Source of the DNA: a phage
Sequence record: PZ583741.1
Reading direction: 5' to 3' (one strand)
DNA: 64,000 nucleotides
This document shows, piece by piece, positions 1 to 58,683 of this stretch (within the stretch, counting starts at the first letter, position 1; the number at the start of each line of letters is the position of its first letter). The translations under genes were made by a program, and so were the position numbers. The notes under the pieces are model-generated. The model saw only the letters and a list, made by a program, of their open reading frames with translations, was not told the DNA's origin and ran no database searches.

Positions 1-1302
<1,302 letters not shown>

Positions 1303-2649: not shown

Positions 2650-3033
2650 TTAAAAAATAATTAATGTAGGCTGCAATTCTTCTTCATACCAAGTCCAGCC
2701 AATACACCGCCCTTCCATGGCGTCAATGTAAGGCTTTACCCAATCCAAAAATGCCTGAATCTCACCGCTATAGTTTTTGATATCGCTGCGACTGAAGATG
2801 TATTGCTCGTCGCTGTAGTCAAATTTTGGGCAACTATTAACTACGGATGGGTGATGGTAAAAGCTACAGTAGTTACCAATAGAATCCCAGCGCGGTAGTG
2901 TGAAAAATTCATGCTCAGGAAGCTTTACTGGCCTGTCGGCACCAGCAAACATATACTGGATTACATCCATCACCTCTTTCGGTACACCCCCCTTAATCTG
3001 ACACTTAAGAACCAACTCTGTGTACATTCCCAT
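2650..3033 (-). CDS. hypothetical protein
   Basis: 127-aa ORF, GGTGAGGAA RBS. Confidence 0.5.
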   Translation of the reverse strand: MGMYTELVLKCQIKGGVPKEVMDVIQYMFAGADRPVKLPEHEFFTLPRWDSIGNYCSFYHHPSVVNSCPKFDYSDEQYIFSRSDIKNYSGEIQAFLDWVKPYIDAMEGRCIGWTWYEEELQPTLIIF

Positions 3034-3055
3034 CCTTTATTCCTCACCGTTTGAT

Positions 3056-3112
3056 TGATGTAGATACTATGCACCACCACTCAATCTACGTCAATAGCCA
3101 TTGTGATAGAAT
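3056..3112 (+). promoter_or_regulatory. divergent promoter region: inverted motif pair TGATGTAGAT / ATCTACGTCA plus extended -10 TGaTAGAAT
   Basis: motif copies at 3056..3065 and 3084..3093; TAGAAT at 3107..3112 upstream of lysozyme gene. Confidence 0.4.
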
Positions 3113-3137
3113 TAATCATTATTGAACAGGAGGCAGA

Positions 3138-3578
3138 ATGAAACTATCGCAACGCGGCAAAGAACTCATTAAGTCGTTCGAAGGGCTTGAGCTACGCGCT
3201 TATCCAGACCCAGCCACGGGAGGAGCGCCGTGGACCGCTGGATATGGCCACACTGGCGCAGATGTGAAGCCTGGAATGACAGTGACACAGGAAATAGCTA
3301 ACGCATGGCTGGATAGTGACGTGAAGAAGTTTGAGGATGGCGTGTCAGCACTGTTAACTGCACCAACCACTCAGTCTCAATTCGATGCAATGGTGTCTCT
3401 GGCATACAACATTGGACTTGGCAACTTCCGCAAATCAACCCTACTACGCAAGCATAACGAGAAGTGCTACACCTGCGCCGCGAGTCAGTTCCTTGTGTGG
3501 AATCGCGCTGCTGGTAAGGTTATGAATGGCCTGACGCGGAGGCGTAACGCAGAACGCGCTATGTATATGGGGCAATGA
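3138..3578 (+). CDS. endolysin, GH24 (T4-type) lysozyme
   Basis: ELIKSFEGLELRAYPD...GYGHT motif pattern typical of phage lysozymes. Confidence 0.85.
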   Translation: MKLSQRGKELIKSFEGLELRAYPDPATGGAPWTAGYGHTGADVKPGMTVTQEIANAWLDSDVKKFEDGVSALLTAPTTQSQFDAMVSLAYNIGLGNFRKSTLLRKHNEKCYTCAASQFLVWNRAAGKVMNGLTRRRNAERAMYMGQ

Positions 3579-16175: not shown

Positions 16176-16573
16176 TGCCAGCAAAATTAAGAGGTGTCCG
16201 CCAAGCCGTAGAAAGAACATCGCAGATTGTGGATGAGATAATCGCCACGAAAGCGGTGCGTGCTATGAAATCAGCAACATACATCATCCGCACTGAATCA
16301 GCCACGCTAACGCCAATTGATACATCGACGCTAATTAACAGCCAGTTTGATACCGTGGAAATTAGCGGAACGCGAATCACTGGCAAGGTTGGCTATTCTG
16401 CTAAATATGCTCTGTACGTCCATAACGCCAGCGGAAAACTTGCAGGTAAACCGCGCAGCAATGGTAACGGTACATACTGGTCGCCGGGCGGTGAGCCGCA
16501 ATTTTTAACCAAAGGGGCGCGGCGCACAAAAGACCTTGTCGATGGCGCGATTAAGAAGGAGATGACACTCTAA
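16175..16573 (+). CDS. putative head-tail connector (HK97 gp10-like)
   Basis: PIDTSTL motif resembling gp10-family PxDTG block. Confidence 0.45.
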   Translation: MPAKLRGVRQAVERTSQIVDEIIATKAVRAMKSATYIIRTESATLTPIDTSTLINSQFDTVEISGTRITGKVGYSAKYALYVHNASGKLAGKPRSNGNGTYWSPGGEPQFLTKGARRTKDLVDGAIKKEMTL

Positions 16574-16947
16574 TGAATATGCTTGAACTGGTTGATGCAT
16601 ATCTTCAGGATGCTGGATTGTATGATGGCTGGACTTCGCAGTTGCAGTTCTGGAATGACACCGGAGATGGCAAAGAACAATTTATTGTCCTGCAATCCAA
16701 TGGTGGCACGCAGGTAATGGATGGCCTCGGCGGTGATTTCTATTTCTCGTTATACGTTGTTGGCAAACAAGGCCAGTACAACGTTGCTGATGTTGATGCG
16801 AAAGCCAATGAGATTATCGAATACATTAAGACGCATCCGATTGATTCATGCGTTAACTACATCCAGTTGCAGGCTCCGCTCGGTAGGCCAATGCTGACGG
16901 AAGAAAAAAGACCTGTGCATGAGTTGCTTTTGCGGGTTGTTAAATAA
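16573..16947 (+). CDS. putative neck / tail completion protein
   Basis: AAGGAGA RBS; position before tail tube. Confidence 0.4.
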   Translation: MNMLELVDAYLQDAGLYDGWTSQLQFWNDTGDGKEQFIVLQSNGGTQVMDGLGGDFYFSLYVVGKQGQYNVADVDAKANEIIEYIKTHPIDSCVNYIQLQAPLGRPMLTEEKRPVHELLLRVVK

Positions 16948-16975
16948 ATAAAGCCGCACTTGGCGGCCTTATTAC
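16948..16975 (+). terminator. putative terminator
   Basis: hairpin gccgcacttggcggc. Confidence 0.4.
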
Positions 16976-17001
16976 TGGTTTAAGCATTGCCAGCGTGCTT
17001 T

Positions 17002-17067
17002 CTTAATATCCAGCCCCGTAACCCATACATACCCCTACATATGATTGCGATAATGCTGGATATTAAG
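17002..17067. repeat. 13-bp perfect inverted repeat CTTAATATCCAGC / GCTGGATATTAAG separated by 40 bp, in a ~560 bp ORF-free region
   Basis: read directly: 17002..17014 and 17055..17067. Confidence 0.6.
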
Positions 17068-17458
17068 TGTTGTGGTGGCCGGTGCTGATCTCCGGCATAA
17101 GGCGCTTATTCGGCGGCGTCGAGCTTGCTTATTCGCTTGAGCCATCCTCGTGAGTCAGCCACGTCCCACTGCGCATCAGCCTGCGCATTCACCACAACGG
17201 AAAGAGCACTGATGCGCTCACTAGGGACTCCTTAGCCATAACCAACGGGCTTCTGGTACACCAATGCTCTTACCTGTTGTGTGCCCATTATTAATCACAG
17301 CGGGCCACTGCGCCGAATTTGTTTACAAGGAATCGGAAGACCTTGCTGACTTACAGGCTATTACGCCGCTATCAGAACAACATCATCGTTTGCATTTATC
17401 TTTGTGGTCAGTTTCTAAAAAGTCCGCAAAGTCGCTCACGAAAACTATCTGAGATACA

Positions 17459-17501
17459 ATCTACACCACAAAAATAACGCTGTCAACACCTGTGATATAA
17501 T
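17459..17501 (+). promoter_or_regulatory. tail-gene promoter: ATCTACACCA - N12 - TGTCAACACC - TGaTATAAT
   Basis: extended -10 at 17493..17501; same architecture as 19179..19227. Confidence 0.45.
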
Positions 17502-17537
17502 CACCACGTTAGCAGCTAACACAATTCGGAGATCGAA

Positions 17538-18257
17538 ATGGCTATTTGTGTAAATGATAAAGGCGTTCTGGTCGGTCGCATGACCCGACTGTTCCTTGCT
17601 GAAGGATGCGGTGACGCAGTTCCGTCAGCAGAAGACTGGAGGTATTTAGGATCAACCACCAGTAAAGGCGTTGACTACTCGCCGCAGACTACCACGTCGG
17701 AAGCGGATACCGCTGGCGGTTTTGTTTCCACTCTCGTTACCAGCTCTGATATGACCATTAGTGCAGAGGTGGAAATTCGCAAAAATGACCCAAGCGATGA
17801 GTTTGGCTTCCATCGCCTGGTTGAGATTTACACCACTGAACTGAAAGCGCGTCGCCAGCCTTCATTATGGGTGCGCGAGGTGACTGGTGCGACTATCGTC
17901 ACCGCGTACTGCAACATCACCAGCATCAGCTACGAAGGCGGCACTAACGACATCGTTACTGGAAGCCTTGAGTTTAAGGTGTATGATTCTGACAGCGTTA
18001 CCGTCGAAAGCCTTGAGCCTCTGAAGTTCACTACCGACCTGCAATCAACTGGCAGCACTGGCAGCCCGTTAACTGTTGCTGTTGAAGGTGGCGTCAATCC
18101 TTACACTTACGTGTGGCGCAAAGATGGCGTAGTTGTTGGTGGTGAATCAGGCGCATCACTGGCAAGCCCTACCGATGGTGTGTACACCGTAACGGTGACT
18201 GACTCGTCTACCGACCCTGAAATCATCATCAGCAAGGCTTGCACCGTATCCCAATAA
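17538..18257 (+). CDS. major tail (tube) protein with C-terminal Ig-like domain
   Basis: 239 aa; Ig-like C-terminal region; upstream of tape measure. Confidence 0.65.
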   Translation: MAICVNDKGVLVGRMTRLFLAEGCGDAVPSAEDWRYLGSTTSKGVDYSPQTTTSEADTAGGFVSTLVTSSDMTISAEVEIRKNDPSDEFGFHRLVEIYTTELKARRQPSLWVREVTGATIVTAYCNITSISYEGGTNDIVTGSLEFKVYDSDSVTVESLEPLKFTTDLQSTGSTGSPLTVAVEGGVNPYTYVWRKDGVVVGGESGASLASPTDGVYTVTVTDSSTDPEIIISKACTVSQ

Positions 18258-46222: not shown

Positions 46223-47461
<1,239 letters not shown>

Positions 47462-47516
47462 GTTATCTTACAAGGCATCTCGTGGGGTGCCTCAGTAAGA
47501 CAACCGGAGATAGAGC

Positions 47517-47702
47517 ATGAAAACCAAAATGATTCACAAGTCAGAAGTAAAAATTGGCGACACGGTAATTCACTGCGGTGAGATGAAGACGGTTGGCATG
47601 GAAACATTTGGCAAGGATGAGTTTATGGGACTCCTACTGTGGGGTGATAGCTATCGCTGCGGCTACAAGATGGTTGAGGTTGTAACTGAGGTTAAGTTTT
47701 GA
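47517..47702 (+). CDS. hypothetical early protein
   Basis: 61 aa, GGAGA RBS. Confidence 0.5.
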   Translation: MKTKMIHKSEVKIGDTVIHCGEMKTVGMETFGKDEFMGLLLWGDSYRCGYKMVEVVTEVKF

Positions 47703-47746
47703 ATAGCACGAATTGCTAAACCTTCCGCAAGGCCGTTTGATATAGT
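47703..47746 (+). promoter_or_regulatory. B-module promoter cassette 1: ATAGCACGAATTGCTAAA - N20 - TATAGT
   Basis: palindrome TAGCA-N5-TGCTA; -10 hexamer 38 bp after motif start. Confidence 0.5.
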
Positions 47747-47966
47747 GGTCTTGTTGAAGCAAAACAATCAATCATGGGGTTACACAAATGCAAGTTTATA
47801 AATCACCTGGCGGCGCTCGTTACGTTGTTGTTGATGGCATGGTGTACTGCAAGCCGCTAACCGGATTCACATTTCGCTCGTCAATGACGGTGGATCGATA
47901 CCTTTAGTTGATAGGTTGGGGATTTCTTAGGTTTGAAAAGGTAATCAAGCCTATAATGACCGTCAA

Positions 47967-48010
47967 ATAGCACGAATTGTTAAAATGGGATTCATCCTGA
48001 ATGGTATGAT
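47967..48010 (+). promoter_or_regulatory. B-module promoter cassette 2 (variant TTGTTA; -10 TATGAT)
   Basis: same 38-bp spacing. Confidence 0.4.
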
Positions 48011-48162
48011 CCACACATCAACCACAAGAATGGAAGTTAAGTGACGATATACGAACATAAATTCAGCAGTATGGGTATTGATATGCTCCTGCACTATGTA
48101 GACGAAAAATACGCAAATCTCATGCTTAATACGCATGGCGGCACAATAACGAGGATTGAGAT

Positions 48163-48426
48163 ATGAGTAAGTACAACCGTGAGATTATCGGCCTGGATGG
48201 GGAAGTAACCACAGTGGATGTATATCGAGTCCTGGATGCATTCCAGGTAACAGACCAAGCTATACAGCACGCAATCAAGAAGATGCTGTGCACTGGACTT
48301 AGAGGGCATAAGGACTATCTTACTGACATTGAAGACTCCATTGAATCACTGCAAAAAGCCAAGGAACTTTACGATCAGCGCAAGAGTTACGAGCGGCGAT
48401 ACAATTTATCTTTTACAGATAAATAG
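48163..48426 (+). CDS. hypothetical early protein
   Basis: 87 aa, GAGGA RBS; stop TAG lies inside next motif. Confidence 0.5.
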   Translation: MSKYNREIIGLDGEVTTVDVYRVLDAFQVTDQAIQHAIKKMLCTGLRGHKDYLTDIEDSIESLQKAKELYDQRKSYERRYNLSFTDK

Positions 48427-48466
48427 CACGAATTGCTAAACCCGCTCAGAAGGGTTTTGTTATAGT
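48423..48466 (+). promoter_or_regulatory. B-module promoter cassette 3
   Basis: motif plus TGtTATAGT extended -10. Confidence 0.5.
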
Positions 48467-48495
48467 TAGTTCACACCAAACGAGAGGAAATAAAG

Positions 48496-48714
48496 ATGAT
48501 TACTATTAACCTGTCAGATAAACAAGCAGCAGAACTCAAGTCCATGCTTTCAATCTTTGAGAAGCCAAATGACCAGGTAATTGCCAAAGAGGTAGTGGCT
48601 CAGATTAACAACCAGCAATTCGACGTAAGTGACTTCGAGTCATCGCGCCAGTACGAGGCAATGAGTGTTAATGCTGCATACCTGACTAACTGGGATAATG
48701 CGACTAAGAAATGA
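48496..48714 (+). CDS. hypothetical early protein
   Basis: 72 aa, GAGAGGAAA RBS. Confidence 0.5.
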   Translation: MITINLSDKQAAELKSMLSIFEKPNDQVIAKEVVAQINNQQFDVSDFESSRQYEAMSVNAAYLTNWDNATKK

Positions 48715-48860
48715 TTTTATACATACATGAGTACTGGACGGGGAAGTTTAACACAGTTCGACATGTCCGTGTTTACGAAGATTATGTAAATGCATTCAAT
48801 CAGCAGAAGGTTCTTGGTGGCACCATCAAGGTTTGCGATGTTGTGGATGAGATTTACTAA
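48711..48860 (+). CDS. small hypothetical protein (49 aa)
   Basis: manual ORF, ATGA overlap. Confidence 0.35.
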   Translation: MILYIHEYWTGKFNTVRHVRVYEDYVNAFNQQKVLGGTIKVCDVVDEIY

Positions 48861-48904
48861 ATAGCACGAATTGCTAAAGCAGTCTTGGGGTAATTTGTTA
48901 TAGT
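48861..48904 (+). promoter_or_regulatory. B-module promoter cassette 4
   Basis: motif plus TGtTATAGT. Confidence 0.5.
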
Positions 48905-48934
48905 TACCACATCAAAACTAACGAGGTTATAAGA

Positions 48935-49039
48935 ATGAGTGAATTAATTAAAACTATCGCGGACTATCCATTTGCTTCGCTTTTTCTTGCTATTGCAATA
49001 TATGAAATTGTAAAGATTATTGTCAAATGTATTAAATAG
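48935..49039 (+). CDS. small membrane peptide (34 aa)
   Basis: manual ORF, GAGG RBS. Confidence 0.3.
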   Translation: MSELIKTIADYPFASLFLAIAIYEIVKIIVKCIK

Positions 49040-49079
49040 CACGAATTTCTAAAACATTATCGGGGTATCTTACTATAGT
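49036..49079 (+). promoter_or_regulatory. B-module promoter cassette 5 (variant TTTCTA)
   Basis: motif plus TATAGT at fixed spacing. Confidence 0.45.
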
Positions 49080-49109
49080 TACCCCATCAAAACGAAACAG
49101 GAAGCAGAA

Positions 49110-49289
49110 ATGAAATTTCAACAAGGCGAGCCAAAGCTACAAGTCAACCACTTCGATGGTTACGCAACATTCATCATAGCCCAGGCTTGCGGGATGCGAG
49201 ATGAACCTCACGTTCACACCATTCACTTAACAGAAGAACAGGCACGAGAACTGGCTTACGAAATTCTTGAGCAATTGAACCGAATTTAA
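49110..49289 (+). CDS. hypothetical protein (59 aa)
   Basis: GGAAG RBS. Confidence 0.4.
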   Translation: MKFQQGEPKLQVNHFDGYATFIIAQACGMRDEPHVHTIHLTEEQARELAYEILEQLNRI

Positions 49290-49338
49290 CGCGCATAAAA
49301 CGCATTCTAACGAACGATAATTTAAGTAAGGCGATTCT

Positions 49339-49497
49339 ATGATTAAGGTTGTTTTTATTGCTGATGATGGTGTTTATCCATTATTATCTAATGGTGATGT
49401 TATTTACGTGCAAGACATGGGTTGCGCATATATCTATACAGATGAGTTTGGTGACTCTTATTATATTGAGAAATGGGAAGTTGAGGAGATTGCATGA
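49339..49497 (+). CDS. small protein, paralog 1 (52 aa)
   Basis: MIKVVFIADDG...; similar to next ORF. Confidence 0.4.
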   Translation: MIKVVFIADDGVYPLLSNGDVIYVQDMGCAYIYTDEFGDSYYIEKWEVEEIA

Positions 49498-49655
49498 TTA
49501 AGCTTGTTTATGTGGGTGAGAGTGATTATGTGGCGCTCATTCAGAGTGGTGATGTGTTCTTCGCAGAGATGAGTGATGATGGTAGTTTCTACATCGTAAA
49601 GAACAAGAATGGCGAAGATATCTACCTTTCAAAAGATGAGGTCATCATTTACTAA
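49494..49655 (+). CDS. small protein, paralog 2 (53 aa)
   Basis: MIKLVYVGESD...; tandem duplicate. Confidence 0.4.
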   Translation: MIKLVYVGESDYVALIQSGDVFFAEMSDDGSFYIVKNKNGEDIYLSKDEVIIY

Positions 49656-49780
49656 TGGATAACTACGAATCACCAGTAGAGTGGTGTAAGCGAATGCAGG
49701 ACGAAGCTAAAACTGGTGAAGAGGCGATGGCTTACTACGAACTGGCGCAAATTTGGATGGAACGTGAGAAGAAAGAATGA
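49655..49780 (+). CDS. small hypothetical protein (41 aa)
   Basis: manual ORF with overlapping start/stop. Confidence 0.3.
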   Translation: MDNYESPVEWCKRMQDEAKTGEEAMAYYELAQIWMEREKKE

Positions 49781-49920
49781 GCTTCACTGAATACGTTATC
49801 GCATGCGAGAGACTGGTCTTTGACATGAAGACTTTTCACTGGTTCATCATCAAGGATTTAATTAAGCCTTACAAGCAAGGCGTTACGCCAGAGGCTTTTG
49901 TTAAGTCATTCTACAAATAG
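49777..49920 (+). CDS. small hypothetical protein (47 aa)
   Basis: manual ORF; stop TAG inside next motif. Confidence 0.35.
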   Translation: MSFTEYVIACERLVFDMKTFHWFIIKDLIKPYKQGVTPEAFVKSFYK

Positions 49921-49960
49921 CACGAATTGCTAAACGCAGTCGCCATGGATGGCATATAAT
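49917..49960 (+). promoter_or_regulatory. B-module promoter cassette 6 (-10 TATAAT)
   Basis: motif plus consensus -10 at fixed spacing. Confidence 0.5.
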
Positions 49961-49993
49961 TACCACATCAACACAACGAAGAGAGATATAATA

Positions 49994-50140
49994 ATGAAAA
50001 ATGTATTTGGCATCAGCTATGAAGAAGAGTTTGTTGATTGCCTTATTTACCTGAATGAGATCTACGGAGATGAGTTTGAATGTGATGGTGATTCACTTCA
50101 TGCAAAAATAGAACTTGAAACATTTGGGGAGGTTGTCTAA
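49994..50140 (+). CDS. hypothetical protein (48 aa)
   Basis: ATG at 49994 in ORF 49949..50140. Confidence 0.4.
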   Translation: MKNVFGISYEEEFVDCLIYLNEIYGDEFECDGDSLHAKIELETFGEVV

Positions 50141-50382
50141 TGATGTTTGGATTATCAGAAGCACACTTCAACGCAGTTAAACGCCAGGCAGCAAAGTTGA
50201 ACGAAGAGTACAGCAAGTTATCGCCAAAACAGCGCAAGGACGATAAGCAGGTTGCGGCATTGATTTCAAAGATGTGGGAGCCAGTTTTCACAATCATTAG
50301 TCGAGACCGCTTTGTTTGGACCAGTGGGTATCTTAAGGGTAGAGTAGGTCACGACGAGAATGGGAATAGTCTTTATGAGTAA
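50140..50382 (+). CDS. hypothetical protein
   Basis: 80 aa, GGGAGG RBS. Confidence 0.5.
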   Translation: MMFGLSEAHFNAVKRQAAKLNEEYSKLSPKQRKDDKQVAALISKMWEPVFTIISRDRFVWTSGYLKGRVGHDENGNSLYE

Positions 50383-50557
50383 TTGCAATAAGCATAGGTA
50401 TAAGTACGCTTTCAGTTCAAAACTTACAGCCCACGACATAAAACTACTTAATCTAGGTTACTTCAAATCCAGCAAAAATGAAAATCATGTCGGGGATTAT
50501 AGATCATTTTATGAGTGCGTTAATTGCGGCGAGATGATTGCGATGGGGGTATTATGA
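50360..50557 (+). CDS. hypothetical protein (zinc-finger-like)
   Basis: 65-aa ORF; start uncertain (50360 or 50375). Confidence 0.35.
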   Translation: MGIVFMSNCNKHRYKYAFSSKLTAHDIKLLNLGYFKSSKNENHVGDYRSFYECVNCGEMIAMGVL

Positions 50558-50640
50558 GTGAGTTAACAATCTGGTTTATCGCAGGTCTGATTACTTGGGC
50601 TTACTTTTTAATCGTTTAGATTGAGCTTGTTAAAAAGAGC

Positions 50641-50669
50641 TTGCATCACTGACAGGAATTATCTAATAT
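50641..50669 (+). promoter_or_regulatory. sigma70-like promoter (TTGCAT - 17 bp - TAATAT) upstream of tRNA
   Basis: hexamers and spacing read from sequence. Confidence 0.4.
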
Positions 50670-50838
50670 TAACCACGTAGACAAACGAGGCCACCAGGTG
50701 GCAACGGCGCACGGAGCGCACTACACGGCAAGTCCGTAGCTCATTAAGTAGCGTATGCGGCATTAAGACCTAGCGCAAATAGGCAGATTAATCGGCTGTA
50801 TCAGGCAGCCCCGGAGCCGTAACCGGGACTCATTCAAA

Positions 50839-50916
50839 GCTCTGCTAGCTCAATTGGACAGAAGCAACGACCTTCTAAGTCGCAGGTTACTGGTTCGAAT
50901 CCAGTGCGGAGCGCCA
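50839..50916 (+). tRNA. tRNA-Arg (anticodon UCU), CCA encoded
   Basis: 7-bp acceptor stem, GG in D-loop, anticodon loop CUUCUAA, T-loop TTCGAAT, 3' GCCA. Confidence 0.75.
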
Positions 50917-50931
50917 ATAAAGGAGTTCATT

Positions 50932-51114
50932 ATGTGGGATGTGAAGTTGTCAATTCGCTTAATGGGCCGCTCGTGCAAGAATTGCACTCAAGAATACATC
51001 GCGTCAGTTGCCGCAATCAGCGCTGAGGATGCGGTAGCGAAAGTAAAGGAGATGTCAGGCGCTGACCCTGACACCCACAAATTCCTGGTAGCTTACGTTC
51101 GTGAGCAAAAGTAA
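50932..51114 (+). CDS. hypothetical protein (60 aa)
   Basis: AAGGAG RBS; track ORF 50854 overlaps the tRNA so start moved. Confidence 0.45.
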   Translation: MWDVKLSIRLMGRSCKNCTQEYIASVAAISAEDAVAKVKEMSGADPDTHKFLVAYVREQK

Positions 51115-51154
51115 AAAGTGTTATACCCTCGTTAAGTTTCGTTTCTCTCGTTGT

Positions 51155-51184
51155 TTTTAGCCCTCGCTTGAGGGCTTTTTTTCG
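51155..51184 (+). terminator. rho-independent terminator
   Basis: hairpin agccctcgcttgagggct plus T6. Confidence 0.6.
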
Positions 51185-51225
51185 TCTGCAATATGCTATA
51201 ATCTGGAATCAACAAAGGAGGATTT

Positions 51226-51732
51226 ATGAGCAAAGCAGCATTAAAGATGGGTGAGGGAAATTTCAAGGCGCTCTACAACAAGAAGTATGGCGACATTGCT
51301 ATGGTGGCAATCAACCGCAAGTACACGCCTGAGGAAGTTTTCGATTTCGCCGTTAGATACTTCTCCTGGGCTGAGAGCGAGGCAATTAAGGCTATTGAGA
51401 CGGCTGCTTTCCAGGGTGTGGTTAGCGAGAGCCTCGTACACAAGCCTAGAGTATTCACCTTAACTGGGCTGGCGCTCTTTATGGGTGTCAATATCAATAG
51501 ATTCGCTCGCTGGCGTACTGAGGCTGGATACTCTGATGTGATGGAATTCATTGATAACGTTATTTACGAGCAGAAGTACCAGCTTGGTGTCGCAGGCATC
51601 ATCAACTCTACCATCGTTGGTAAAGAGCTAGGAATTGATAAGCCGCAGGAGATTAAGATTAGCAACAACTCCACAGCTAACGATGTTGACAGTATGAAGG
51701 AAGCACTTGAGTCCGTGATCAGTAAGCTATAG
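51226..51732 (+). CDS. terminase small subunit
   Basis: 168 aa, HTH-like TLTGLALFMGVNINRFARW; AAGGAGG RBS; upstream of large terminase. Confidence 0.6.
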   Translation: MSKAALKMGEGNFKALYNKKYGDIAMVAINRKYTPEEVFDFAVRYFSWAESEAIKAIETAAFQGVVSESLVHKPRVFTLTGLALFMGVNINRFARWRTEAGYSDVMEFIDNVIYEQKYQLGVAGIINSTIVGKELGIDKPQEIKISNNSTANDVDSMKEALESVISKL

Positions 51733-51800
51733 CACTTATTGTTAAAAGAATGGGCCCAATCAATGAGATAATTGGGTCACTAACTTAACGAGGTGATGAT

Positions 51801-52313
51801 ATGAATTGGCATGATTATTTTGAATACAAAGATGGGAAGATTTACTGGAAAGATTACGATAGCGAGAAGCTTGGAAGGAGAAGGATACAGCGAAGATTCA
51901 TAGGGAAAGAGGTTGGCGGCATTGATAAAAGCCTAGGGTATGTTAGGGTAAACATGCCTGGTAAAAAATATTGGGTTCATAGAATAATCTGGGAAATGCA
52001 TAACGGAGCAATACCAGAAGGTATGCAAATTGACCATATAAATCATGTTAGAAATGATAACAGGATAGAAAACATTAGGTTAGTTACAATTCAGGAAAAT
52101 AGAAAGAATCAGTCAATAAATTCTAGGAATAAGACCGGGGTTACCGGAGTCTGCATAGTATCTAGGACTGGCAAGTATGTAGCTCAAATAAAAAAGGATG
52201 GAGAGAATATTCACTTGGGATTCTTTGATAATATTCACGACGCATCGATTGTCAGGGCGAGGGCTGAATTTATTCTTGGGTATCATAAAAACCACGGGAG
52301 GAAAGATGAGTGA
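51801..52313 (+). CDS. HNH homing endonuclease with AP2 domain, between terminase subunits
   Basis: HRIIWEMHNGAIPEGMQIDHINH...DNRIENIRLV; C-terminal GYHKNHG. Confidence 0.85.
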   Translation: MNWHDYFEYKDGKIYWKDYDSEKLGRRRIQRRFIGKEVGGIDKSLGYVRVNMPGKKYWVHRIIWEMHNGAIPEGMQIDHINHVRNDNRIENIRLVTIQENRKNQSINSRNKTGVTGVCIVSRTGKYVAQIKKDGENIHLGFFDNIHDASIVRARAEFILGYHKNHGRKDE

Positions 52314-53877
52314 TTTGATAGTTTGGGATGAGTTAAATCATGCGCAGAAGATGGCTATCAAGGCCATCTCTGAGCATAGTTTCGAGGGGTTCTTGCGGTG
52401 TTTCTTCCAGATAACTCAGGGCGAGAGATTCAAAATGAATTGGCATGCGAAGTACCTTTGCCGCGTCATTGATGAGATTCTTGAGGGTAAGAGAAAGGAT
52501 ACCATCATAAACGTATCTCCGGGATCTGCCAAAACCGAACTGTTTAGCATCCACTTCCCTGTATATAGCATGATTAAGATTAAGAAGGTTAGGAATCTTA
52601 GTTTGTCGTTCTCTGACTCATTGGTTAAGCGCAACTCCAAGCGCGTAAGGGATTTGATAAAATCAAAGGAGTTCCAGGAGCTTTGGCCCTGCACCTTTGG
52701 AACGTGCAGGGATGACGAGATTCAGGTTCTTGATGAGAATGGCAAAGTTAGGTTTGAGTCTATATCTAAGGCGATGGCTGGTCAGGTGACAGGAAGCAGG
52801 GGCGGCTACATGACTGACGATTATAGTGGTTGCATAATGCTGGATGACCCACTAAAGCCTGATGACGCGTTAAGTAATGTAAGAAGAGAGGCTGTCAATA
52901 TGCTTCTCAAGAACACAATCCGTTCACGTCGAGCTAGCTCAGTAAAGGGAAAAGAAACGCCAATACTTTCCGTGCAGCAAAGACTTCATGTTCTGGACAC
53001 TAGCCACTTCATGGAGTCAGGGCAAATGGGCATAAAGTTCGACGTAGTGAAAGTTCCAGCCATAGTCACAGAGGATTACGCCGACACGCTTCCTGATTGG
53101 ATCAAACAACAATTTATTGATGATGTTCTTTCATCACCATTTGTAGAGCGGGATGGAGTTAAGTATTACAGCTACTTTCCGGCAAAGGAGTCAATAGAAG
53201 ACCTGATGGCTATGTGGGATGCTGACCCGTACACGTTCCTTAGTCAGTACCAGCAGGAACCTGTAGCTCTGGGCGGCAATCTTATTAATGTGGATTGGTT
53301 CCAGCGCCTTAGTGATACATTCATACCTCCAGCCAAGTATGATTATCGATTCATCACATGCGATACCGCGATGACCACTAAAAGTTACAGCGACTTCTCT
53401 GTTCTTCAGTTGTGGGGCTATAAAGATGCTAAGATTTACCTTATTGATCAGCGCAGGGGTAAATGGGAGGCCCCAGAGTTGGAGGCTGAACTTCTGGACT
53501 TTGAGAAGAAATCAAGGGCAACCAGTCAGTCAGATGGTATCCTCAGAAAGATTATTATCGAGAAGAAAGCGTCTGGTATCGGCCTGATTCAATCAGCTGG
53601 CAGGGTTATGCGAACACCGATAGAGCCATACGTACCGGATAATGACAAGCTAACCAGGGTGATGAGTGCACTACCACAGATTAAGGCTGGTAACGTAGTT
53701 CTTCCAGAGTCATCGCCGTGGCTAAACGGATTGCTCACTGAGGTTGCGGCTTTTACGGCAGATGACTCGCATAAGCACGACGACCAAATTGACTGTCTAA
53801 CAATGGCGGTAAACCTTGTACTTAACATCGCTGATGATCCTAAGGCGAGACTGATGCGCATAGCGGGAATGAAATAG
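52306..53877 (+). CDS. terminase large subunit
   Basis: Walker A-like VSPGSAKTE; C-terminal nuclease Asp residues; overlaps HNH stop by 8 nt. Confidence 0.8.
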   Translation: MSDLIVWDELNHAQKMAIKAISEHSFEGFLRCFFQITQGERFKMNWHAKYLCRVIDEILEGKRKDTIINVSPGSAKTELFSIHFPVYSMIKIKKVRNLSLSFSDSLVKRNSKRVRDLIKSKEFQELWPCTFGTCRDDEIQVLDENGKVRFESISKAMAGQVTGSRGGYMTDDYSGCIMLDDPLKPDDALSNVRREAVNMLLKNTIRSRRASSVKGKETPILSVQQRLHVLDTSHFMESGQMGIKFDVVKVPAIVTEDYADTLPDWIKQQFIDDVLSSPFVERDGVKYYSYFPAKESIEDLMAMWDADPYTFLSQYQQEPVALGGNLINVDWFQRLSDTFIPPAKYDYRFITCDTAMTTKSYSDFSVLQLWGYKDAKIYLIDQRRGKWEAPELEAELLDFEKKSRATSQSDGILRKIIIEKKASGIGLIQSAGRVMRTPIEPYVPDNDKLTRVMSALPQIKAGNVVLPESSPWLNGLLTEVAAFTADDSHKHDDQIDCLTMAVNLVLNIADDPKARLMRIAGMK

Positions 53878-53917
53878 CACAAATTGCTAAACACTAAAGC
53901 CACGGATGGCGTATAGT
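53874..53917 (+). promoter_or_regulatory. B-module promoter cassette 7 (variant ATAGCACAAATTGCTAAA)
   Basis: terminase stop TAG is inside motif; TATAGT at fixed spacing. Confidence 0.45.
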
Positions 53918-53946
53918 TACTTCACACAAAAGAGAGGAGAAGAAAG

Positions 53947-54279
53947 ATGAAGGCAGTATTTAAAGGTTATAAAAAAGCTGGTCGTTTGGAATTTACTATT
54001 GGTAAGATTTATGAGTTATCAGAAACACGCGGAGTGGGTGGATATATGGTGGTGACTGATGACGGTGGCTTTCGGGCAATATTTATCCCAGACAACATCT
54101 ATGATTTCGAGGTGTTGATCCCAGATGAATTTATCGGTAAAGAAAAGCAATTCAAATATTACATCAATGGCGAAGCTGTTTCTAAAGTCAAGTTCGATGA
54201 TACACTGTTATGCGTCAAGGAATTTAAATCTGATGGCATTGATACATCATCAATCAAGTTCGAAGTAAAATTCGAGTAA
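53947..54279 (+). CDS. hypothetical protein
   Basis: 110 aa, GAGAGGAG RBS, own promoter and terminator. Confidence 0.5.
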   Translation: MKAVFKGYKKAGRLEFTIGKIYELSETRGVGGYMVVTDDGGFRAIFIPDNIYDFEVLIPDEFIGKEKQFKYYINGEAVSKVKFDDTLLCVKEFKSDGIDTSSIKFEVKFE

Positions 54280-54298
54280 CCACAAAAGCTATGATAAA

Positions 54299-54325
54299 CT
54301 AGCCCCTAAATGGGGCTTTTTTATT
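54299..54325 (+). terminator. rho-independent terminator
   Basis: hairpin agcccctaaatggggct plus T6. Confidence 0.6.
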
Positions 54326-54335
54326 GGAGAAAAAC

Positions 54336-55562
54336 ATGGTCAAGACAGACAGCTACGCCAATATCTTTCTAGGCGGCAGTGATGGTAGTGAGATTTACGG
54401 GAGCTTGCAGAACCAAGCGCCTACAATTCTGGCTTCGCTTTATGCGGATAATGCACTGGTGCGTCGAATTATCGACACAATCCCGGAGACGGCATTAGCG
54501 GCAGGATTCCACATTGACGGCATTGATGACGAGCCTGCATTCTGGTCTCGCTGGGACTATCTGGAGTTGACAAGGCACATCAACGAAGCGTGGTCGTGGG
54601 CTAGATTGTTCGGTGGAGCGGCAATTGTCGCTATCGTTAAGGACAACAGAGCTCTAACAAGCCCAGTCAGAGAAGGTTCTGAGCTTGAAACTGTTCGCGT
54701 ATACGACCGCACACAAGTAAAAGTCCAAACTCGAGAGGAGAATCCGCGCAACGCACGTTTTGGTAATCCACTAACCTATCGCATCACCACTAATGAGAGC
54801 GATATGTTTTACGATGTGCATTACAGCCGCATTCATATCATCGACGGAGAGCGAATCCCTAACGTAATGCGTCGGCAAAATGATGGCTGGGGCCGCAGCG
54901 TTCTCTCCAGTGATATTCTTGACTCAATCAAGGATTACACCAACTGCGAACGACTAGCGACTCAACTGCTCAAGCGTAAACAGCAAGCGGTCTGGAAAGT
55001 CAAGGACCTGGCATTGCTTTGTGATGATAGTGAAGGAGTTGGCGCGGCTCGTTTACGTCTCGCTCAAGTTGATAACAACAGCGGAGTTGGTCAGGCAATT
55101 GGCATTGATGCGGAATCGGAAGAATACAGCATTCTGAACTCTGATATTGGTGGGATTGATGCGTTCCTGGATAAGAAGTTCGACAGAATCGTTGCTCTGA
55201 GCGGCATCCATGAAATAATCCTGAAGAACAAGAACGTCGGCGGCTTATCATCAAGCCAGAATACAGCGCTTGAGACATTCCATAAGCTAGTCGATCGAAA
55301 GCGTAACGCTGAACTGCTGCCGATTCTCGGGTTCCTGATTCCGTTCATTTCAGACGAGCAAGAATGGTCAGTGGAGTTTAATCCTCTGGCTCAGGAATCA
55401 AGTAAAGATAAAGCGGAGACCCTTGAGAAGAACGTAAACAGTATAGCAACACTAATTGCAGCTGGCGCTATGGATACTAGCGAAGCGCGTGATACACTAC
55501 GAACTATCGCGCCAGAGATTAAGATTGGCGATGGCAATATCGAACCTAAAGAACCAGTCTAG
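54336..55562 (+). CDS. putative portal protein
   Basis: 408 aa; between large terminase and scaffold. Confidence 0.5.
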   Translation: MVKTDSYANIFLGGSDGSEIYGSLQNQAPTILASLYADNALVRRIIDTIPETALAAGFHIDGIDDEPAFWSRWDYLELTRHINEAWSWARLFGGAAIVAIVKDNRALTSPVREGSELETVRVYDRTQVKVQTREENPRNARFGNPLTYRITTNESDMFYDVHYSRIHIIDGERIPNVMRRQNDGWGRSVLSSDILDSIKDYTNCERLATQLLKRKQQAVWKVKDLALLCDDSEGVGAARLRLAQVDNNSGVGQAIGIDAESEEYSILNSDIGGIDAFLDKKFDRIVALSGIHEIILKNKNVGGLSSSQNTALETFHKLVDRKRNAELLPILGFLIPFISDEQEWSVEFNPLAQESSKDKAETLEKNVNSIATLIAAGAMDTSEARDTLRTIAPEIKIGDGNIEPKEPV

Positions 55563-55631
55563 GAAGCAATGGCGACGACAGAGGAACCTAATGAATGATG
55601 AATTTGATGGCTTTTAGTGAGGAGAATTGGG

Positions 55632-56717: not shown

Positions 56718-56729
56718 GGAGTTATAAAC

Positions 56730-57239
56730 ATGGCAATTCGTTCCGTAGCACTGGCTGGTATGGTTTCTGATACCTCTCTGTATAACATCGACGGCGCTTG
56801 CGTAGTTGGCGGCAGCGATGCAATTCCGGTTGGTACTGTTGTTGGTGTAACAGCCGCTCAGCCTATAGATGGTCACAAAGTTGTTGGCCTTCCAGCTGTA
56901 ACTGGCACGGCAGTTAAACCTTATGGTGTTGTTGTTAAATCTCATTACGAGACTCCAGATGGCACAGCTCGCGTAAATGAAGCAGTTAACGTAATGACTC
57001 ATGGTCGCATCTGGGTTCGCACCACTTTAGCAGCCGCGCCAGTTTTTGGTAGCAAGGTTTTCGTAAACGCAAGTGGTGTAGTTGTTGCTGAAGCGGCTAC
57101 TACTACTTGGGAAACTGGTTTTACATTTGCTGGCGGTTACATCGCAAACACTGGCACAGACCCACAAAACCTGAGCGTTGATGGTGCCCTAGTTGAGGTT
57201 CAGCTTATCCAATCCACGGACTCAACCGTTGCAGCATAA
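56730..57239 (+). CDS. putative head decoration protein
   Basis: 169 aa between scaffold and major capsid genes. Confidence 0.45.
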   Translation: MAIRSVALAGMVSDTSLYNIDGACVVGGSDAIPVGTVVGVTAAQPIDGHKVVGLPAVTGTAVKPYGVVVKSHYETPDGTARVNEAVNVMTHGRIWVRTTLAAAPVFGSKVFVNASGVVVAEAATTTWETGFTFAGGYIANTGTDPQNLSVDGALVEVQLIQSTDSTVAA

Positions 57240-57253
57240 TAGTTAAGACTAAA

Positions 57254-57280
57254 CTAACCCGCTTCGGCGGGTTTTTTATT
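57254..57280 (+). terminator. rho-independent terminator (UUCG loop)
   Basis: aacccgcttcggcgggtt plus T6. Confidence 0.6.
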
Positions 57281-57362
57281 GCCTATCATCTCATCATTGC
57301 GTGGTCTAAAAACTCGTGTATAATGAACACGTAGACACCTAACTGAAAAGGAACAATAAAGA

Positions 57363-58304: not shown

Positions 58305-58307
58305 TAA

Positions 58308-58642: not shown

Positions 58643-58683
58643 CAAACAGGGGGCTTAGGCCTCCTTTATTGTATGGAGCTAAT

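What the first reader, a model, noticed from the sequence alone, without database searches (positions are those of the whole stretch)
16976..17537. 560-bp ORF-free structured region before the tail tube gene
In an otherwise tightly packed genome this region has no credible ORF. It contains a perfect 13-bp inverted repeat (17002..17014 and 17055..17067), a 9-bp inverted repeat GCGCATCAG/CTGATGCGC with a ~32-nt loop (about 17175..17236), GC-rich hairpins and the late promoter at 17481..17501. Candidates are a non-coding RNA, a packaging or recombination site, or the remnant of a deleted gene.
Basis: seen in the sequence. Interest (0 to 1): 0.5.

Follow-up and report, generated by a model that had tools for sequence, protein, structure and literature searches.

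The report
Phage tmRNA-like RNA gene, opposite strand
The "empty" 560 bp before the tail tube gene is a roughly 500-nt RNA gene on the opposite strand that looks like the message-carrying half of tmRNA, the bacterial ribosome-rescue RNA, but has no recognisable tRNA half; near-identical copies occur in many unrelated enterobacterial phages and have not been annotated as such.

Summary
The gap is not empty: it holds a non-coding RNA gene on the minus strand. Predicted signals are a sigma-70 promoter (TTGACA-17 nt-TAGATT, 17486-17458), a start near 17450, and a terminator at 16967-16942.

The 5' 183 nt (17450-17268) form a tmRNA-like core:
- a resume motif AUAAAU followed by a 10-codon tag frame, ANDDVVLIAA, then a stop codon;
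- the stop sits in a hairpin;
- two pseudoknots follow, both supported by covariation.

The core is 80-97% identical in siphophages, N4-like podophages, Ackermannviridae, HK620 and lambdoid prophages, and P1. In HK620-type phages it lies between pR' and tR'. In P1 it lies in the ban operon ahead of the tRNA genes. It is always in the sense of local transcription or of neighbouring tRNAs.

ARAGORN does not call it and Rfam scores stay below threshold. It lacks G3:U70, a canonical T-loop and an encoded CCA. The identity as a tmRNA-derived RNA is well supported. The mechanism, ribosome rescue versus decoy, is inferred only. I found no prior description, so I class it as a new variant of a known kind.

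The parts
17458..17486 (-). Predicted sigma-70 promoter of the RNA gene: -35 TTGACA (17486-17481), 17-nt spacer, -10 TAGATT (17463-17458). The predicted start is near 17451-17449.
   Evidence: It is the only promoter-like site in 16850-17650 (10 of 12 matches). It is conserved in Bas80 and ASO78B. Conservation with unrelated phages begins exactly at the predicted start.
17268..17450 (-). tmRNA-like core: 5' motif, tentative PK1, resume motif, tag frame, stop-codon hairpin, PK2 and PK3.
   Evidence: Covariance model R1 finds one copy in the window, 210 bits. On 38 distinct copies, 87% of cells are paired against 40-46% when partners are slid, and 97 cells change on both sides (0 of 500 shuffles reach this). 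Weak Rfam tmRNA_permuted and beta_tmRNA matches fall on the tag region.
17438..17447 (-). Conserved 5' motif UAGUUUUCGU. The invariant part across the family is GUUUUCG.
   Evidence: It is the most conserved 5' element across class B, L025/L056 and L017-type copies. By eye it resembles AAUAGUUUCGAC, which follows the 5' acceptor strand in genuine phage two-piece tmRNAs. It is also a 10-nt perfect complement of E. coli ssrA 97-106, but a match this long arises in 17 of 300 shuffles.
17400..17445 (-). Tentative pseudoknot PK1. S1 pairs 17445-17441 with 17415-17411; S2 pairs 17431-17424 with 17407-17400.
   Evidence: The sequence is conserved, but no pair changes on both sides (helices 1 and 2). 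S1 cannot form in L025, L056 or L017-type copies. I treat it as inferred.
17361..17399 (-). Resume motif AUAAAU (17399-17394) and tag frame GCA AAC GAU GAU GUU GUU CUG AUA GCG GCG UAA, encoding ANDDVVLIAA* (17393-17361).
   Evidence: There is an in-frame UAG upstream and no ATG, GTG or TTG start. All 22 distinct family tags have 10 codons plus a stop. The other two frames contain stops in 21 of 22 and 17 of 22. Residues 5-8 are 97% hydrophobic. Several changes within lineages are synonymous.
17346..17375 (-). Hairpin around the stop codon, analogous to tmRNA helix 5. Outer stem 17375-17371 / 17350-17346; inner stem 17367-17365 / 17358-17356.
   Evidence: In the outer stem one pair switches between G-C (22 copies) and A-U (15 copies), and no cell is unpaired in four of the five pairs (helix 3).
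17313..17345 (-). Pseudoknot PK2. S1 pairs 17345-17341 with 17330-17326; S2 pairs 17336-17333 with 17316-17313.
   Evidence: Helix 5 is 99.5% paired, with three pairs changing on both sides (CG/UA, GC/AU, AU/GC). Helix 6 has three pairs changing on both sides.
17283..17312 (-). Pseudoknot PK3. S1 pairs 17312-17308 with 17300-17296; S2 pairs 17305-17302 with 17286-17283. The loop UGAUUAAUAA is conserved.
   Evidence: Helix 7 is 96.8% paired, and its closing pair appears as CG, GC or UA. In helix 8 all four pairs change on both sides.
17199..17274 (-). Helix H: GGUAAGAGCAUU (17274-17263) pairs with AGUGCUCUUUCC (17210-17199) around a variable insert of about 52 nt.
   Evidence: I extracted 47 unique instances using anchors outside the stem. 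Their 9-nt arms pair almost perfectly, with at least 8 different compensatory arm sequences and a conserved U.G wobble. The MFE fold reproduces the helix.
17069..17198 (-). Helix A: GUUGUGGUG (17198-17190) pairs with CACCACAAC (17077-17069). Inside are the hairpin UGCGCA-GGCUGA-UGCGCA (17187-17170), a variable middle, and the hairpin GCCGG-AGAUCAGCA-CCGGC (17096-17078), which abuts the 3' strand.
   Evidence: The variable end of the stem covaries: GUG/CAC, CUG/CAG, AUG/CAU, AGG/CUU, AC/GU. The inner hairpin has a compensatory G-C to A-U change in L035. One variant (L027) has a canonical T-arm, GGUGG-UUCGACU-CCACU, at the position of the second hairpin.
17002..17067 (-).
   Evidence: I1. It is conserved in the same phage group, with a compensatory U-A to C-G change in L123 and a G.U variant in L002. 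Relatives have tRNA genes directly after it.
16942..16967 (.). Bidirectional intrinsic terminator: hairpin 16967-16953, then UUUAUUUAUUU (16952-16942) on the minus strand. It is shared with the convergent gene 16573..16947.
   Evidence: The scan lists the hairpin on the plus strand. The minus-strand U-tract is read. The MFE fold shows an 11-bp terminal stem.
17493..17501 (+). TGaTATAAT, a possible extended -10 promoter for the major tail protein gene. It is divergent from, and overlaps, the promoter of the RNA gene.
Evidence: Read directly. The consensus scan does not report it because it has no -35.

Best explanation
The gap is a non-coding RNA gene on the minus strand. It is transcribed from its own sigma-70 promoter (start near 17450) to the bidirectional terminator near 16945, giving a primary transcript of roughly 500 nt.

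Its first 183 nt are a derived tmRNA (ssrA-like) module. They contain a resume motif, a 10-codon tag frame (ANDDVVLIAA) whose stop codon lies in a hairpin, and a run of small pseudoknots. The canonical alanine-accepting tRNA-like domain is missing.

Two helices (H and A) follow the core. In other phages these helices, or real tRNA genes, flank the core on one or both sides.

Inferred mechanism, not shown: tRNA-processing enzymes cut the core out of a tRNA-operon-like transcript. In the infected cell the core then serves as a tag template in ribosome rescue (trans-translation). Stalled ribosomes would be released and the incomplete proteins would carry a phage-specified degradation tag. The tRNA-like partner would be the non-canonical helix A or H element, or a component I have not identified.
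For: Strand and transcription:
- The only promoter-like site in the region is on the minus strand, and conservation with unrelated phages starts at its predicted start site.
- Relatives have minus-strand tRNA genes just downstream.
- The HK620 copy lies between the annotated pR'/qut and the late terminator, in the sense of late transcription.
- The P1 copy lies just downstream of the annotated C1-controlled P1ban/P2ban promoters and upstream of trnA and trnT.
- Conserved G.U pairs fit only this strand.

tmRNA relationship:
- Rfam tmRNA_permuted and beta_tmRNA align to the tag region in the window and in every homologue tested.
- A scan of viral contigs for the 17-nt resume and tag-start motif returned about 100 tmRNA-style tags. 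These include ARAGORN-verified two-piece phage tmRNAs with the same motif.
- The layout matches tmRNA: stop codon in a hairpin, followed by pseudoknots supported by covariation.

The tag looks translated:
- All 22 distinct tag sequences have 10 codons plus a stop.
- Stops are frequent in the other two frames.
- Residues 5-8 are 97% hydrophobic and the tags end in AA or VA.
- Many within-lineage changes are synonymous (GUU/GUA/GUC, CUG/UUG, GCG/GCC/GCU).
- The U and A at -5 and -4 of the resume codon are invariant. From my own knowledge, these correspond to U85 and A86 of E. coli tmRNA.

Functional constraint:
- Identity is 80-97% across unrelated phage families.
- 718 of 5426 complete E. coli genomes carry it in prophages or P1-like plasmids.

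Processing:
- 35 of 52 distinct cores have helix H directly after PK3, and others are directly flanked by tRNAs or by H or A strands.
- Some H and A variants contain canonical T-arms abutting their 3' strand.
Against: - No chargeable tRNA-like domain was found. Helix A has U-A or C-G, not G.U, at position 3:70.
- The hairpin that occupies the T-arm position has a variable 9-nt loop rather than a T-loop.
- CCA is encoded only in the HK620 and lambdoid copies, and the base after the 3' strand is not conserved.
- ARAGORN calls nothing here. Rfam scores are 27-35 bits against a threshold of 47.
- The tRNA model does not hit helices H or A.
- There is no separate acceptor piece anywhere in the window.
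- P1-like and some lambdoid copies have helix A reduced to a closed mini-hairpin.
- PK1 has no covariation support.
- I have no expression data for this phage. The promoter, the terminator and all processing steps are predictions.
Confidence: 0.5

Rival explanations
1. tmRNA mimic or antagonist. The RNA is not itself translated. It interferes with host trans-translation by titrating SmpB, the ribosome or another tmRNA partner, or by pairing through its 5' motif with the tag codons of host tmRNA. This would protect phage proteins from tagging or redirect ribosome rescue.
For: - The tRNA-like domain needed for charging is absent or non-canonical.
- The 5' motif UAGUUUUCGU is a perfect complement of E. 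coli ssrA 97-106, which are tag codons 3-6. Most variants keep 9-11 nt of this complementarity, while the phage's own tag is not complementary to it.
- There is a precedent for a partial phage tmRNA that inhibits host tmRNA: the tRNA-like-domain-only molecule of mycobacteriophage DS6A (PMC4131195).
Against: - A 10-mer complement arises in 17 of 300 shuffles.
- Beyond the invariant GUUUUCG, the flanking bases vary without tracking the host sequence.
- A pure decoy would not need an intact 10-codon frame with synonymous variation.
- I could not identify the host of the L017-type variant, so the one possible phage-host covariation test failed.
Confidence: 0.2
2. The RNA has no function tied to ribosome rescue. 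It is a leader or processing scaffold for phage tRNA operons, or a stable RNA with an unrelated role. In this window it is left without its tRNAs, and the tmRNA likeness is historical only.
For: - It is found at the head of, or inside, tRNA clusters.
- Helices H and A recur as cassettes between tRNA genes in P1-like elements.
- The window lacks the tRNAs that its relatives have downstream.
Against: - The core, not the cassettes, is the constant unit. It is kept where no tRNA follows: in this window, in HK620, and in L061 and L074.
- This reading leaves the maintenance of the tag frame and the resume motif unexplained.
Confidence: 0.13
3. It is a decaying pseudogene of a phage two-piece tmRNA. 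It hitchhikes in a recombination hot spot and is spread by homing endonucleases and by recombination at conserved cassette ends.
For: - The tRNA-like domain has been lost.
- The architecture around the core is a mosaic of modules.
- An HNH/AP2-type ORF lies directly after the core in L086.
- Gene content in this gap differs among close relatives.
Against: - Compensatory covariation occurs in at least five helices.
- Loops are invariant.
- Identity is 80-97% across phage families.
- 22 tag variants are all free of frameshifts and premature stops.
All of these indicate purifying selection.
Confidence: 0.1
4. It is a DNA-level element (pac or cos site, origin, recombination site) or a set of small plus-strand protein genes, as annotated in Bas80.
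For: - Inverted repeats are present.
- Bas80 and Bas77-79 annotate hypothetical proteins here.
Against: - The same sequence sits at unrelated genome positions in phages with different packaging strategies.
- G.U pairs are strand-specific.
- The plus-strand ORFs are broken in the window, and indels among homologues are not multiples of three.
- A 131-bp direct repeat at 1-131 and 47277-47406 marks what look like the genome ends, far from this region.
Confidence: 0.03

Closest known systems
Two-piece (circularly permuted) tmRNA genes of phages, such as Methylophilales phage Melnitz and the ARAGORN-positive viral contigs L013, L022, L024 and L098
   Same: - They share the resume and tag-start sequence UAAAUGCAAACGA(U/A)GA(U/A).
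- Tags are 10-14 codons and end in AA.
- The stop codon lies in a hairpin.
- They are phage-borne and often lie near tRNA genes.
- The class-B 5' motif AUAGUUUUCGUC resembles their AAUAGUUUCGAC (PMC9004378).
   Different: Those genes have an acceptor piece with a canonical T-loop, an acceptor stem compatible with G3:U70, and an encoded ACCA upstream of the coding piece. The window has none of these. Its pseudoknots downstream of the tag also differ in sequence.
Standard bacterial tmRNA (SsrA, Rfam RF00023), such as E. coli ssrA
   Same: The order of parts matches: a possible pseudoknot, a single-stranded resume region with U and A at -5 and -4, a tag beginning ANDx and ending in hydrophobic residues plus AA, a stop in helix 5, then further pseudoknots. 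The sequence around the stop is also similar (UAAUAGCCUGU against UAAUAACCUGC).
   Different: - There is no 5' acceptor strand, no P2 helix and no T-arm/ACCA end.
- blastn finds no similarity to host ssrA.
- The core is 183 nt against 363 nt.
- The gene is carried by phages, not by the chromosome next to smpB.
Mycobacteriophage DS6A tmRNA-like gene, which has the tRNA-like domain only
   Same: It is a phage-borne partial tmRNA, which shows that phages keep incomplete tmRNA derivatives. It was reported to inhibit host tmRNA (PMC4131195, PMC11915505).
   Different: It is the mirror image. DS6A keeps the tRNA-like domain and lacks the tag. This element keeps the tag and pseudoknots and lacks the tRNA-like domain.
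Short pR'-tR' leader transcripts of lambdoid phages (lambda 6S RNA, StxS of Stx phages; named from my own knowledge)
   Same: In HK620 and lambdoid prophages the element fills the interval between pR'/qut and the late terminator. There it would be the constitutive short late-leader transcript.
   Different: There is no sequence relationship. The window copy has its own promoter in a virulent-type siphophage.

Membership tests
tmRNA (standard or permuted) | A resume codon preceded by a conserved single-stranded motif, followed by a short tag frame that ends in hydrophobic residues plus AA and a stop codon | tested here: met
   AUAAAU-GCA AAC GAU GAU GUU GUU CUG AUA GCG GCG UAA at 17399-17361. 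All 22 family variants keep 10 codons plus a stop. ARAGORN-verified phage tmRNAs carry the same motif.
tmRNA (standard or permuted) | The stop codon lies in a hairpin (helix 5), and pseudoknots flank the tag | tested here: met
   The stop hairpin, PK2 and PK3 are supported by covariation. PK1 upstream of the tag is only tentative.
tmRNA (standard or permuted) | A tRNA-like domain with a 7-bp acceptor stem carrying G3:U70, the alanine identity element | tested here: not met
   Helix A is UGUGGUG/CACCACA, with U-A at 3:70 (C-G if read in the other orientation). Helix H has no conserved G.U at that position. An apparent G3:U70 in P1-like copies proved to be a misassigned hairpin strand.
tmRNA (standard or permuted) | A canonical T-arm (5-bp stem, loop of UUCGAAU type) directly before the 3' acceptor strand, and a 3' NCCA | tested here: not met
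   In the window the hairpin at that position is GCCGG-AGAUCAGCA-CCGGC, with a variable 9-nt loop, and the 3' strand is followed by ACAC. Canonical T-arms occur only in some variants elsewhere (L027, L035, L025, L097). There is no TLD anywhere in the window.
tmRNA (standard or permuted) | Detection by ARAGORN, or an Rfam score above the gathering threshold | tested here: not met
   ARAGORN finds nothing in the window or in any class-B copy. tmRNA_permuted scores 27.1 bits in the window and at most 34.9 in homologues, against a threshold of 47.
tmRNA (standard or permuted) | Charging with alanine, binding of SmpB and EF-Tu, and tagging of stalled nascent chains | not testable with these tools
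   This needs biochemistry or proteomics.
tRNA / tRNA-like element (helices H and A) | A cloverleaf that scores with the tRNA covariance model or with ARAGORN | tested here: not met
   Rfam tRNA (E up to 0.5) and ARAGORN give no hit on the H or A cassettes, including variants with canonical T-arms. The resemblance is limited to a closing stem with a hairpin abutting its 3' strand.
Protein-coding gene (hypothetical proteins annotated in Bas80 and Bas77-79) | An open reading frame conserved among homologues | tested here: not met
   The window has only ORFs of 62 aa or less here. Homologues differ by 1-, 5- and 8-nt indels.

The most novel reading that the evidence does not exclude
This would be a previously unrecognised class of phage RNA: a tmRNA with no tRNA-like domain of its own. 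It would act on the host's ribosome-rescue system in trans. One route is docking onto host tmRNA through the 5' motif that is complementary to the host tag codons. Another is assembly with a non-canonical tRNA-like piece charged by an enzyme other than AlaRS. Either way the phage would block or re-programme the tag that rescued host proteins receive. It would be the first natural anti-tmRNA or tag-reprogramming RNA, shared by P1, P22-like, lambdoid, N4-like, Vi1-like and T1-sized siphophages.
Probability: 0.2. Interest if true: 0.9.

Novelty: new variant of a known kind. Interest (0 to 1): 0.75.

Why it matters
Phage-encoded tmRNAs are considered rare. One ARAGORN survey found them in about 2% of phage genomes, with two-piece forms mostly marine (PMC9004378). 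This element escapes ARAGORN and stays below Rfam thresholds, yet:
- it is present in 417 phage records (any part of the region);
- 13% of complete E. coli genomes carry it;
- it occurs in classic model phages, P1 (ban operon leader) and HK620 (late leader), where the interval is unannotated or only flanked by a 'dicF-like region' note.

If it works in or against trans-translation, manipulation of ribosome rescue would be a common strategy of enterobacterial phages. That would give a handle on the long-known dependence of some phages on ssrA. If it works without a tRNA-like domain, it would challenge the view that the two halves of tmRNA must act together.

In practical terms, the family should be added to RNA annotation resources. 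The spurious 'hypothetical proteins' called across it should be removed.

Tried and rejected
1. A closing stem between 17471-17464 and 17077-17070 (I9), read as a one-piece acceptor stem. Rejected: the 5' arm lies in the promoter spacer and is not conserved outside the window's own phage group.

2. G3:U70 plus A73 in P1-like copies. Rejected: GCGUAAC is the 3' strand of a mini-hairpin, GUUGCG-loop-CGUAAC.

3. Antisense pairing of the 5' motif with the host tag. Kept only as a lead. A complement of 10 nt or more arises in 17 of 300 shuffles. RNAduplex on full-length RNAs was uninformative.

4. A test of phage-host covariation using the L017-type variant (motif AAUUGUUCGUC). It failed because the host could not be identified. 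L017 is a distant N4-like phage with 32-34% GC, partly from human-microbiome samples, and carries no uptake-signal sequences.

5. Rejected: its 5' arm lies in the variable insert of helix H.

6. Shared 8-9-mers between the helix A insert and the PK4 region of E. coli tmRNA. Judged to be chance, and blastn finds no ssrA match.

7. A search for a separate acceptor piece or TLD in the window. None found.

8. Rfam tRNA model on the H and A cassettes. No hit.

9. The first genome contigs pattern was mistyped and gave 0 hits. The corrected pattern found only 3 species representatives.

10. The P1 genome paper could not be read. Five literature searches found no description of this element.

11. Folding energy does not discriminate between the strands.
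Full report
**1. The observation**

Window 16976-17537 lies between a 124-aa gene (16573..16947, phrog_782) and the major tail (tube) protein gene (17538..18257, phrog_853, E 9e-84). No ORF in the gap exceeds 62 aa.

The 13-bp perfect inverted repeat is exactly at 17002-17014 / 17055-17067. The 9-bp repeat is at 17171-17179 / 17209-17217, with 29 nt between the arms. The first is far beyond chance and is conserved with a compensatory change in relatives. The second is within chance expectation and is not the conserved pairing.

Both strands fold better than shuffled controls (z -1.9 minus, z -4.6 plus). Thermodynamics therefore does not choose the strand.

**2. What the region is related to**

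Megablast shows that the window's own relatives share the gap. These are siphophages of about 47 kb: Bas77-80, ZCEC08, HC6, ASO78B, Sf11 and DS8. Their content in the gap varies and includes minus-strand tRNA genes: Met in Bas80, Ser and Arg in ASO78B.

Unexpectedly, window ~17068-17488 is also 80-91% identical to unannotated DNA in unrelated phages:
- Klebsiella siphophages;
- N4-like Gamaleyavirus (PE007);
- Ackermannviridae (Magnus, Det7 and others);
- HK620;
- Vibrio phage pYD38-A;
- in part, Erwinia, Pantoea and Pseudomonas phages.

In complete E. coli genomes it occurs in 718 of 5426. There are 221 chromosomal copies, and the one examined lies in a lambdoid prophage between Q and the holin gene. 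There are 554 plasmid copies; the one examined is a P1-like plasmid of about 92 kb, where the element lies between dmt and the tRNA genes. Host ssrA is not matched.

Among one-genome-per-species representatives, only three carry the core. It therefore belongs to the mobile phage gene pool of Enterobacterales.

**3. Strand and transcription**

Every context places the element in the sense of the window's minus strand:
- neighbouring tRNAs in relatives are on that strand;
- in HK620 it lies between the annotated pR'/qut and the late terminator tQ;
- in P1 it lies just downstream of the C1-controlled P1ban/P2ban promoters and an annotated 'dicF-like region', and upstream of trnA and trnT.

In the window, the only sigma-70-like site in 16850-17650 is on the minus strand: TTGACA (17486-17481), 17 nt, TAGATT (17463-17458). 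Sequence conservation with unrelated phages starts at its predicted start site, about 17450.

The transcript would end at the bidirectional terminator: hairpin 16967-16953 followed by UUUAUUUAUUU. These signals are predictions. I have no expression data for this phage.

**4. The tmRNA-like core**

The only Rfam matches in the gap are sub-threshold hits of tmRNA_permuted (27.1 bits, threshold 47) and beta_tmRNA on the minus strand. They align to the tag-coding part of those models, and the same hits recur in all homologues tested.

The minus strand reads AUAAAU GCA AAC GAU GAU GUU GUU CUG AUA GCG GCG UAA, which encodes ANDDVVLIAA* (17399-17361). There is an in-frame UAG upstream and no start codon.

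I scanned viral contigs for the 17-nt motif TAAATGCAAACGAWGAW. This returned 120 loci, about 100 of which carry tmRNA-style tags. They fall into two classes:
- Class A: genuine two-piece (permuted) phage tmRNAs, with a canonical acceptor piece and 5' strand. ARAGORN recognises them or they are evident by eye.
- Class B: this element, which ARAGORN never calls.

I aligned 38 distinct class-B cores (A1) and scored a structure drawn by hand. 87.1% of cells are paired, against 40-46% when the 3' partners are slid. 97 cells change on both sides, against 11-31 for the slid controls. None of 500 shuffles reaches the observed values.

The best-supported elements are:
- the hairpin around the stop codon;
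- an H-type pseudoknot right after it (PK2: 17345-17341/17330-17326 and 17336-17333/17316-17313);
- a second pseudoknot (PK3: 17312-17308/17300-17296 and 17305-17302/17286-17283).

A pseudoknot upstream of the tag (PK1) is plausible but has no covariation. One of its stems cannot form in divergent members.

A covariance model built from A1 finds exactly one copy in the window (17268-17450, 210 bits). It scores class-B copies at 117-210 bits, an AT-rich N4-like variant (L017 type) at 58 bits, and true permuted tmRNAs at 20-33 bits. The last figure is inflated, because those loci were selected by the shared 17-mer.

**5. Is the tag read?**

The 22 distinct class-B tag sequences all have 10 codons plus a stop. 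The other two frames carry stops in 21 and 17 of the 22. Residues 5-8 are 97% hydrophobic. Within lineages there are roughly eleven synonymous changes (GUU/GUA/GUC, CUG/UUG, GUA/GUU, GCA/GCC, GCG/GCC/GCU, UAA/UAG) against roughly seven conservative replacements.

The U and A at -5 and -4 are invariant. From my own knowledge, these correspond to the positions that set the resume codon in E. coli tmRNA.

Part of the tag also lies in the stop hairpin, so RNA structure contributes to this conservation. Even so, the pattern looks like selection on a peptide.

**6. What follows the core**

Two helices follow PK3.

Helix H pairs GGUAAGAGCAUU (17274-17263) with AGUGCUCUUUCC (17210-17199). I extracted instances using anchors outside the stem. 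The 47 unique instances pair almost perfectly, with at least eight different compensatory arm sequences and a conserved U.G wobble. The flanks ACAACAGGUAA and UUUCC-GUUGUG are more conserved than the stem itself.

Helix A pairs GUUGUGGUG (17198-17190) with CACCACAAC (17077-17069). Its variable end covaries: GUG/CAC, CUG/CAG, AUG/CAU, AGG/CUU, AC/GU.

Both helices enclose variable inserts. In the window, helix A contains the conserved hairpin UGCGCA-GGCUGA-UGCGCA and a second hairpin (17096-17078) that abuts the 3' strand, much as a T-arm abuts an acceptor strand. In some variants a canonical T-arm sits at exactly that place: L027 for helix A; L035, L025, L070 and L126 for helix H. In L097 a stem-plus-T-arm element ending in A-CCA follows the core.

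Neither the Rfam tRNA model nor ARAGORN accepts any of these as a tRNA.

The H and A cassettes recur one to three times per locus and between the tRNA genes of P1-like elements. Of 52 distinct cores, 35 have helix H directly after PK3. Others have an H or A 3' strand, or a real tRNA, directly at their 5' end.

This is the basis for my inference that the core is released from a tRNA-operon-like precursor by tRNA-processing enzymes. It is an inference only.

Relatives have tRNA genes immediately after it, and the window goes straight to the terminator.

**7. What is missing**

- No acceptor stem has G3:U70.
- There is no canonical T-loop in the window.
- CCA is encoded only in the HK620 and lambdoid copies, and no discriminator base is conserved.
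- P1-like copies and the upstream lambdoid cassettes have helix A reduced to a closed mini-hairpin.
- There is no separate acceptor piece anywhere in the window.

The element therefore fails the defining tests of tmRNA membership on the tRNA side and passes them on the mRNA side.

**8. Mechanism**

What is shown: a conserved, structured, strand-specific RNA element with a tmRNA-type tag module. It is widely shared among enterobacterial phages and sits where it will be transcribed.

What is inferred: it acts in ribosome rescue. My best guess is that it supplies a phage-specified tag template for trans-translation during infection. The tRNA-like function would come from the non-canonical A or H element or from an unidentified partner. 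This is the only reading that explains the maintained reading frame.

The main rival is a mimic or antagonist of host tmRNA. It is attractive because the tRNA-like domain is absent, and because the conserved 5' motif UAGUUUUCGU is a perfect complement of host tag codons 3-6 (ssrA 97-106). That match alone is not significant (17 of 300 shuffles). The motif may instead be the counterpart of the AAUAGUUUCGAC motif that follows the 5' acceptor strand in genuine phage two-piece tmRNAs.

A processing-scaffold role, a decaying pseudogene, and a DNA-level site are less likely, for the reasons listed under the rival explanations.

**9. Novelty**

Known phage tmRNAs are ARAGORN-detectable standard or two-piece forms, plus the DS6A molecule that has only the tRNA-like domain (PMC4131195, PMC11915505, PMC9004378).

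I found no description of a tag-only, pseudoknotted tmRNA derivative in enterobacterial phages. The P1, HK620 and BASEL annotations leave the interval blank, label an adjacent 'dicF-like region', or call hypothetical proteins across it.

I could not read the P1 genome paper or search subscription journals. Prior mention therefore cannot be excluded.

I rate it a new variant of a known kind, with about a one-in-five chance that it works in a way that would make it a new kind.

Noticed in passing
window 1-131 and 47277-47406; window 47407-64000: A 131-bp direct repeat (99% identical) brackets a genome of about 47.3 kb. The DNA after 47406 belongs to a different phage type (vB_Ec-G8 / CEB_EC3a-like, with small and large terminase genes). 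The window is therefore one complete phage genome plus the start of another sequence. The only tRNA ARAGORN finds in the window (tRNA-Arg, 50839-50916) lies in that second part.
   Followed up: partly
window 17438-17447 (minus) against E. coli ssrA 97-106 (L128): The conserved 5' motif of the RNA is a perfect 10-nt complement of the host tmRNA tag codons 3-6 (11 nt in lambdoid copies). The phage's own tag is not complementary to it. This is not significant alone (17 of 300 shuffles). The L017-type variant AAUUGUUCGUC would fit a host tag ANDEQY, but its host is unknown.
   Followed up: partly
L129 (phage P1, NC_005856) 68791-68892: The P1 annotation carries a 'dicF-like region' that ends exactly where the tmRNA-like core begins. 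The leader of the ban operon therefore appears to hold two non-coding RNA modules ahead of trnA and trnT.
   Followed up: no
L097 3560-3840 (minus strand), directly after the core: A tRNA-like element with a 7-bp acceptor stem (UCCAGGA/UCCUGGA), a canonical T-arm (GGUGG-UUCGAUU-CCUCC), A73 and an encoded CCA, but with about 100 nt between the 5' strand and the T-arm. ARAGORN does not call it, even in intron mode.
   Followed up: partly
L086, about 130-500 nt downstream of the tag; L017 301-996: ORFs of homing-endonuclease type lie next to the tmRNA-like core or in the same tRNA region. They were recognised by eye only: an AP2-like motif GVSWDTSRRKWRVRI in L086 and an HNH/AP2-like 231-aa ORF in L017. 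They might explain how the module spreads between unrelated phages.
   Followed up: no
L005 (Klebsiella phage Magnus) 262-476, minus strand: An Rfam STnc100 sRNA match above threshold (52.9 bits against 47) lies about 1.7 kb from the tmRNA-like element, in a stretch annotated as tiny hypothetical ORFs.
   Followed up: no
window 17204-17219 (minus): A local hairpin, GAGCGCAUCAGUGCUC followed by UUUCC, competes with helix H for its 3' strand and was flagged as terminator-like. Its 5' half lies in the variable insert, so it is specific to this phage.
   Followed up: partly
L001 (Bas80) 2673-3176 and the equivalent stretch in Bas77-79: 'Hypothetical protein' CDSs of 33 and 121 aa are annotated on the plus strand across the RNA element. 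They have no conserved frame in relatives and are probably annotation artefacts.
   Followed up: partly
Pseudomonas phage vB_Pae_CF177c (MK511010) 49293-49408: The helix A cassette alone, with the same insert as in the window, is 91% identical in a Pseudomonas phage and is annotated there as a hypothetical protein. The cassettes therefore move independently of the core and beyond Enterobacterales.
   Followed up: no
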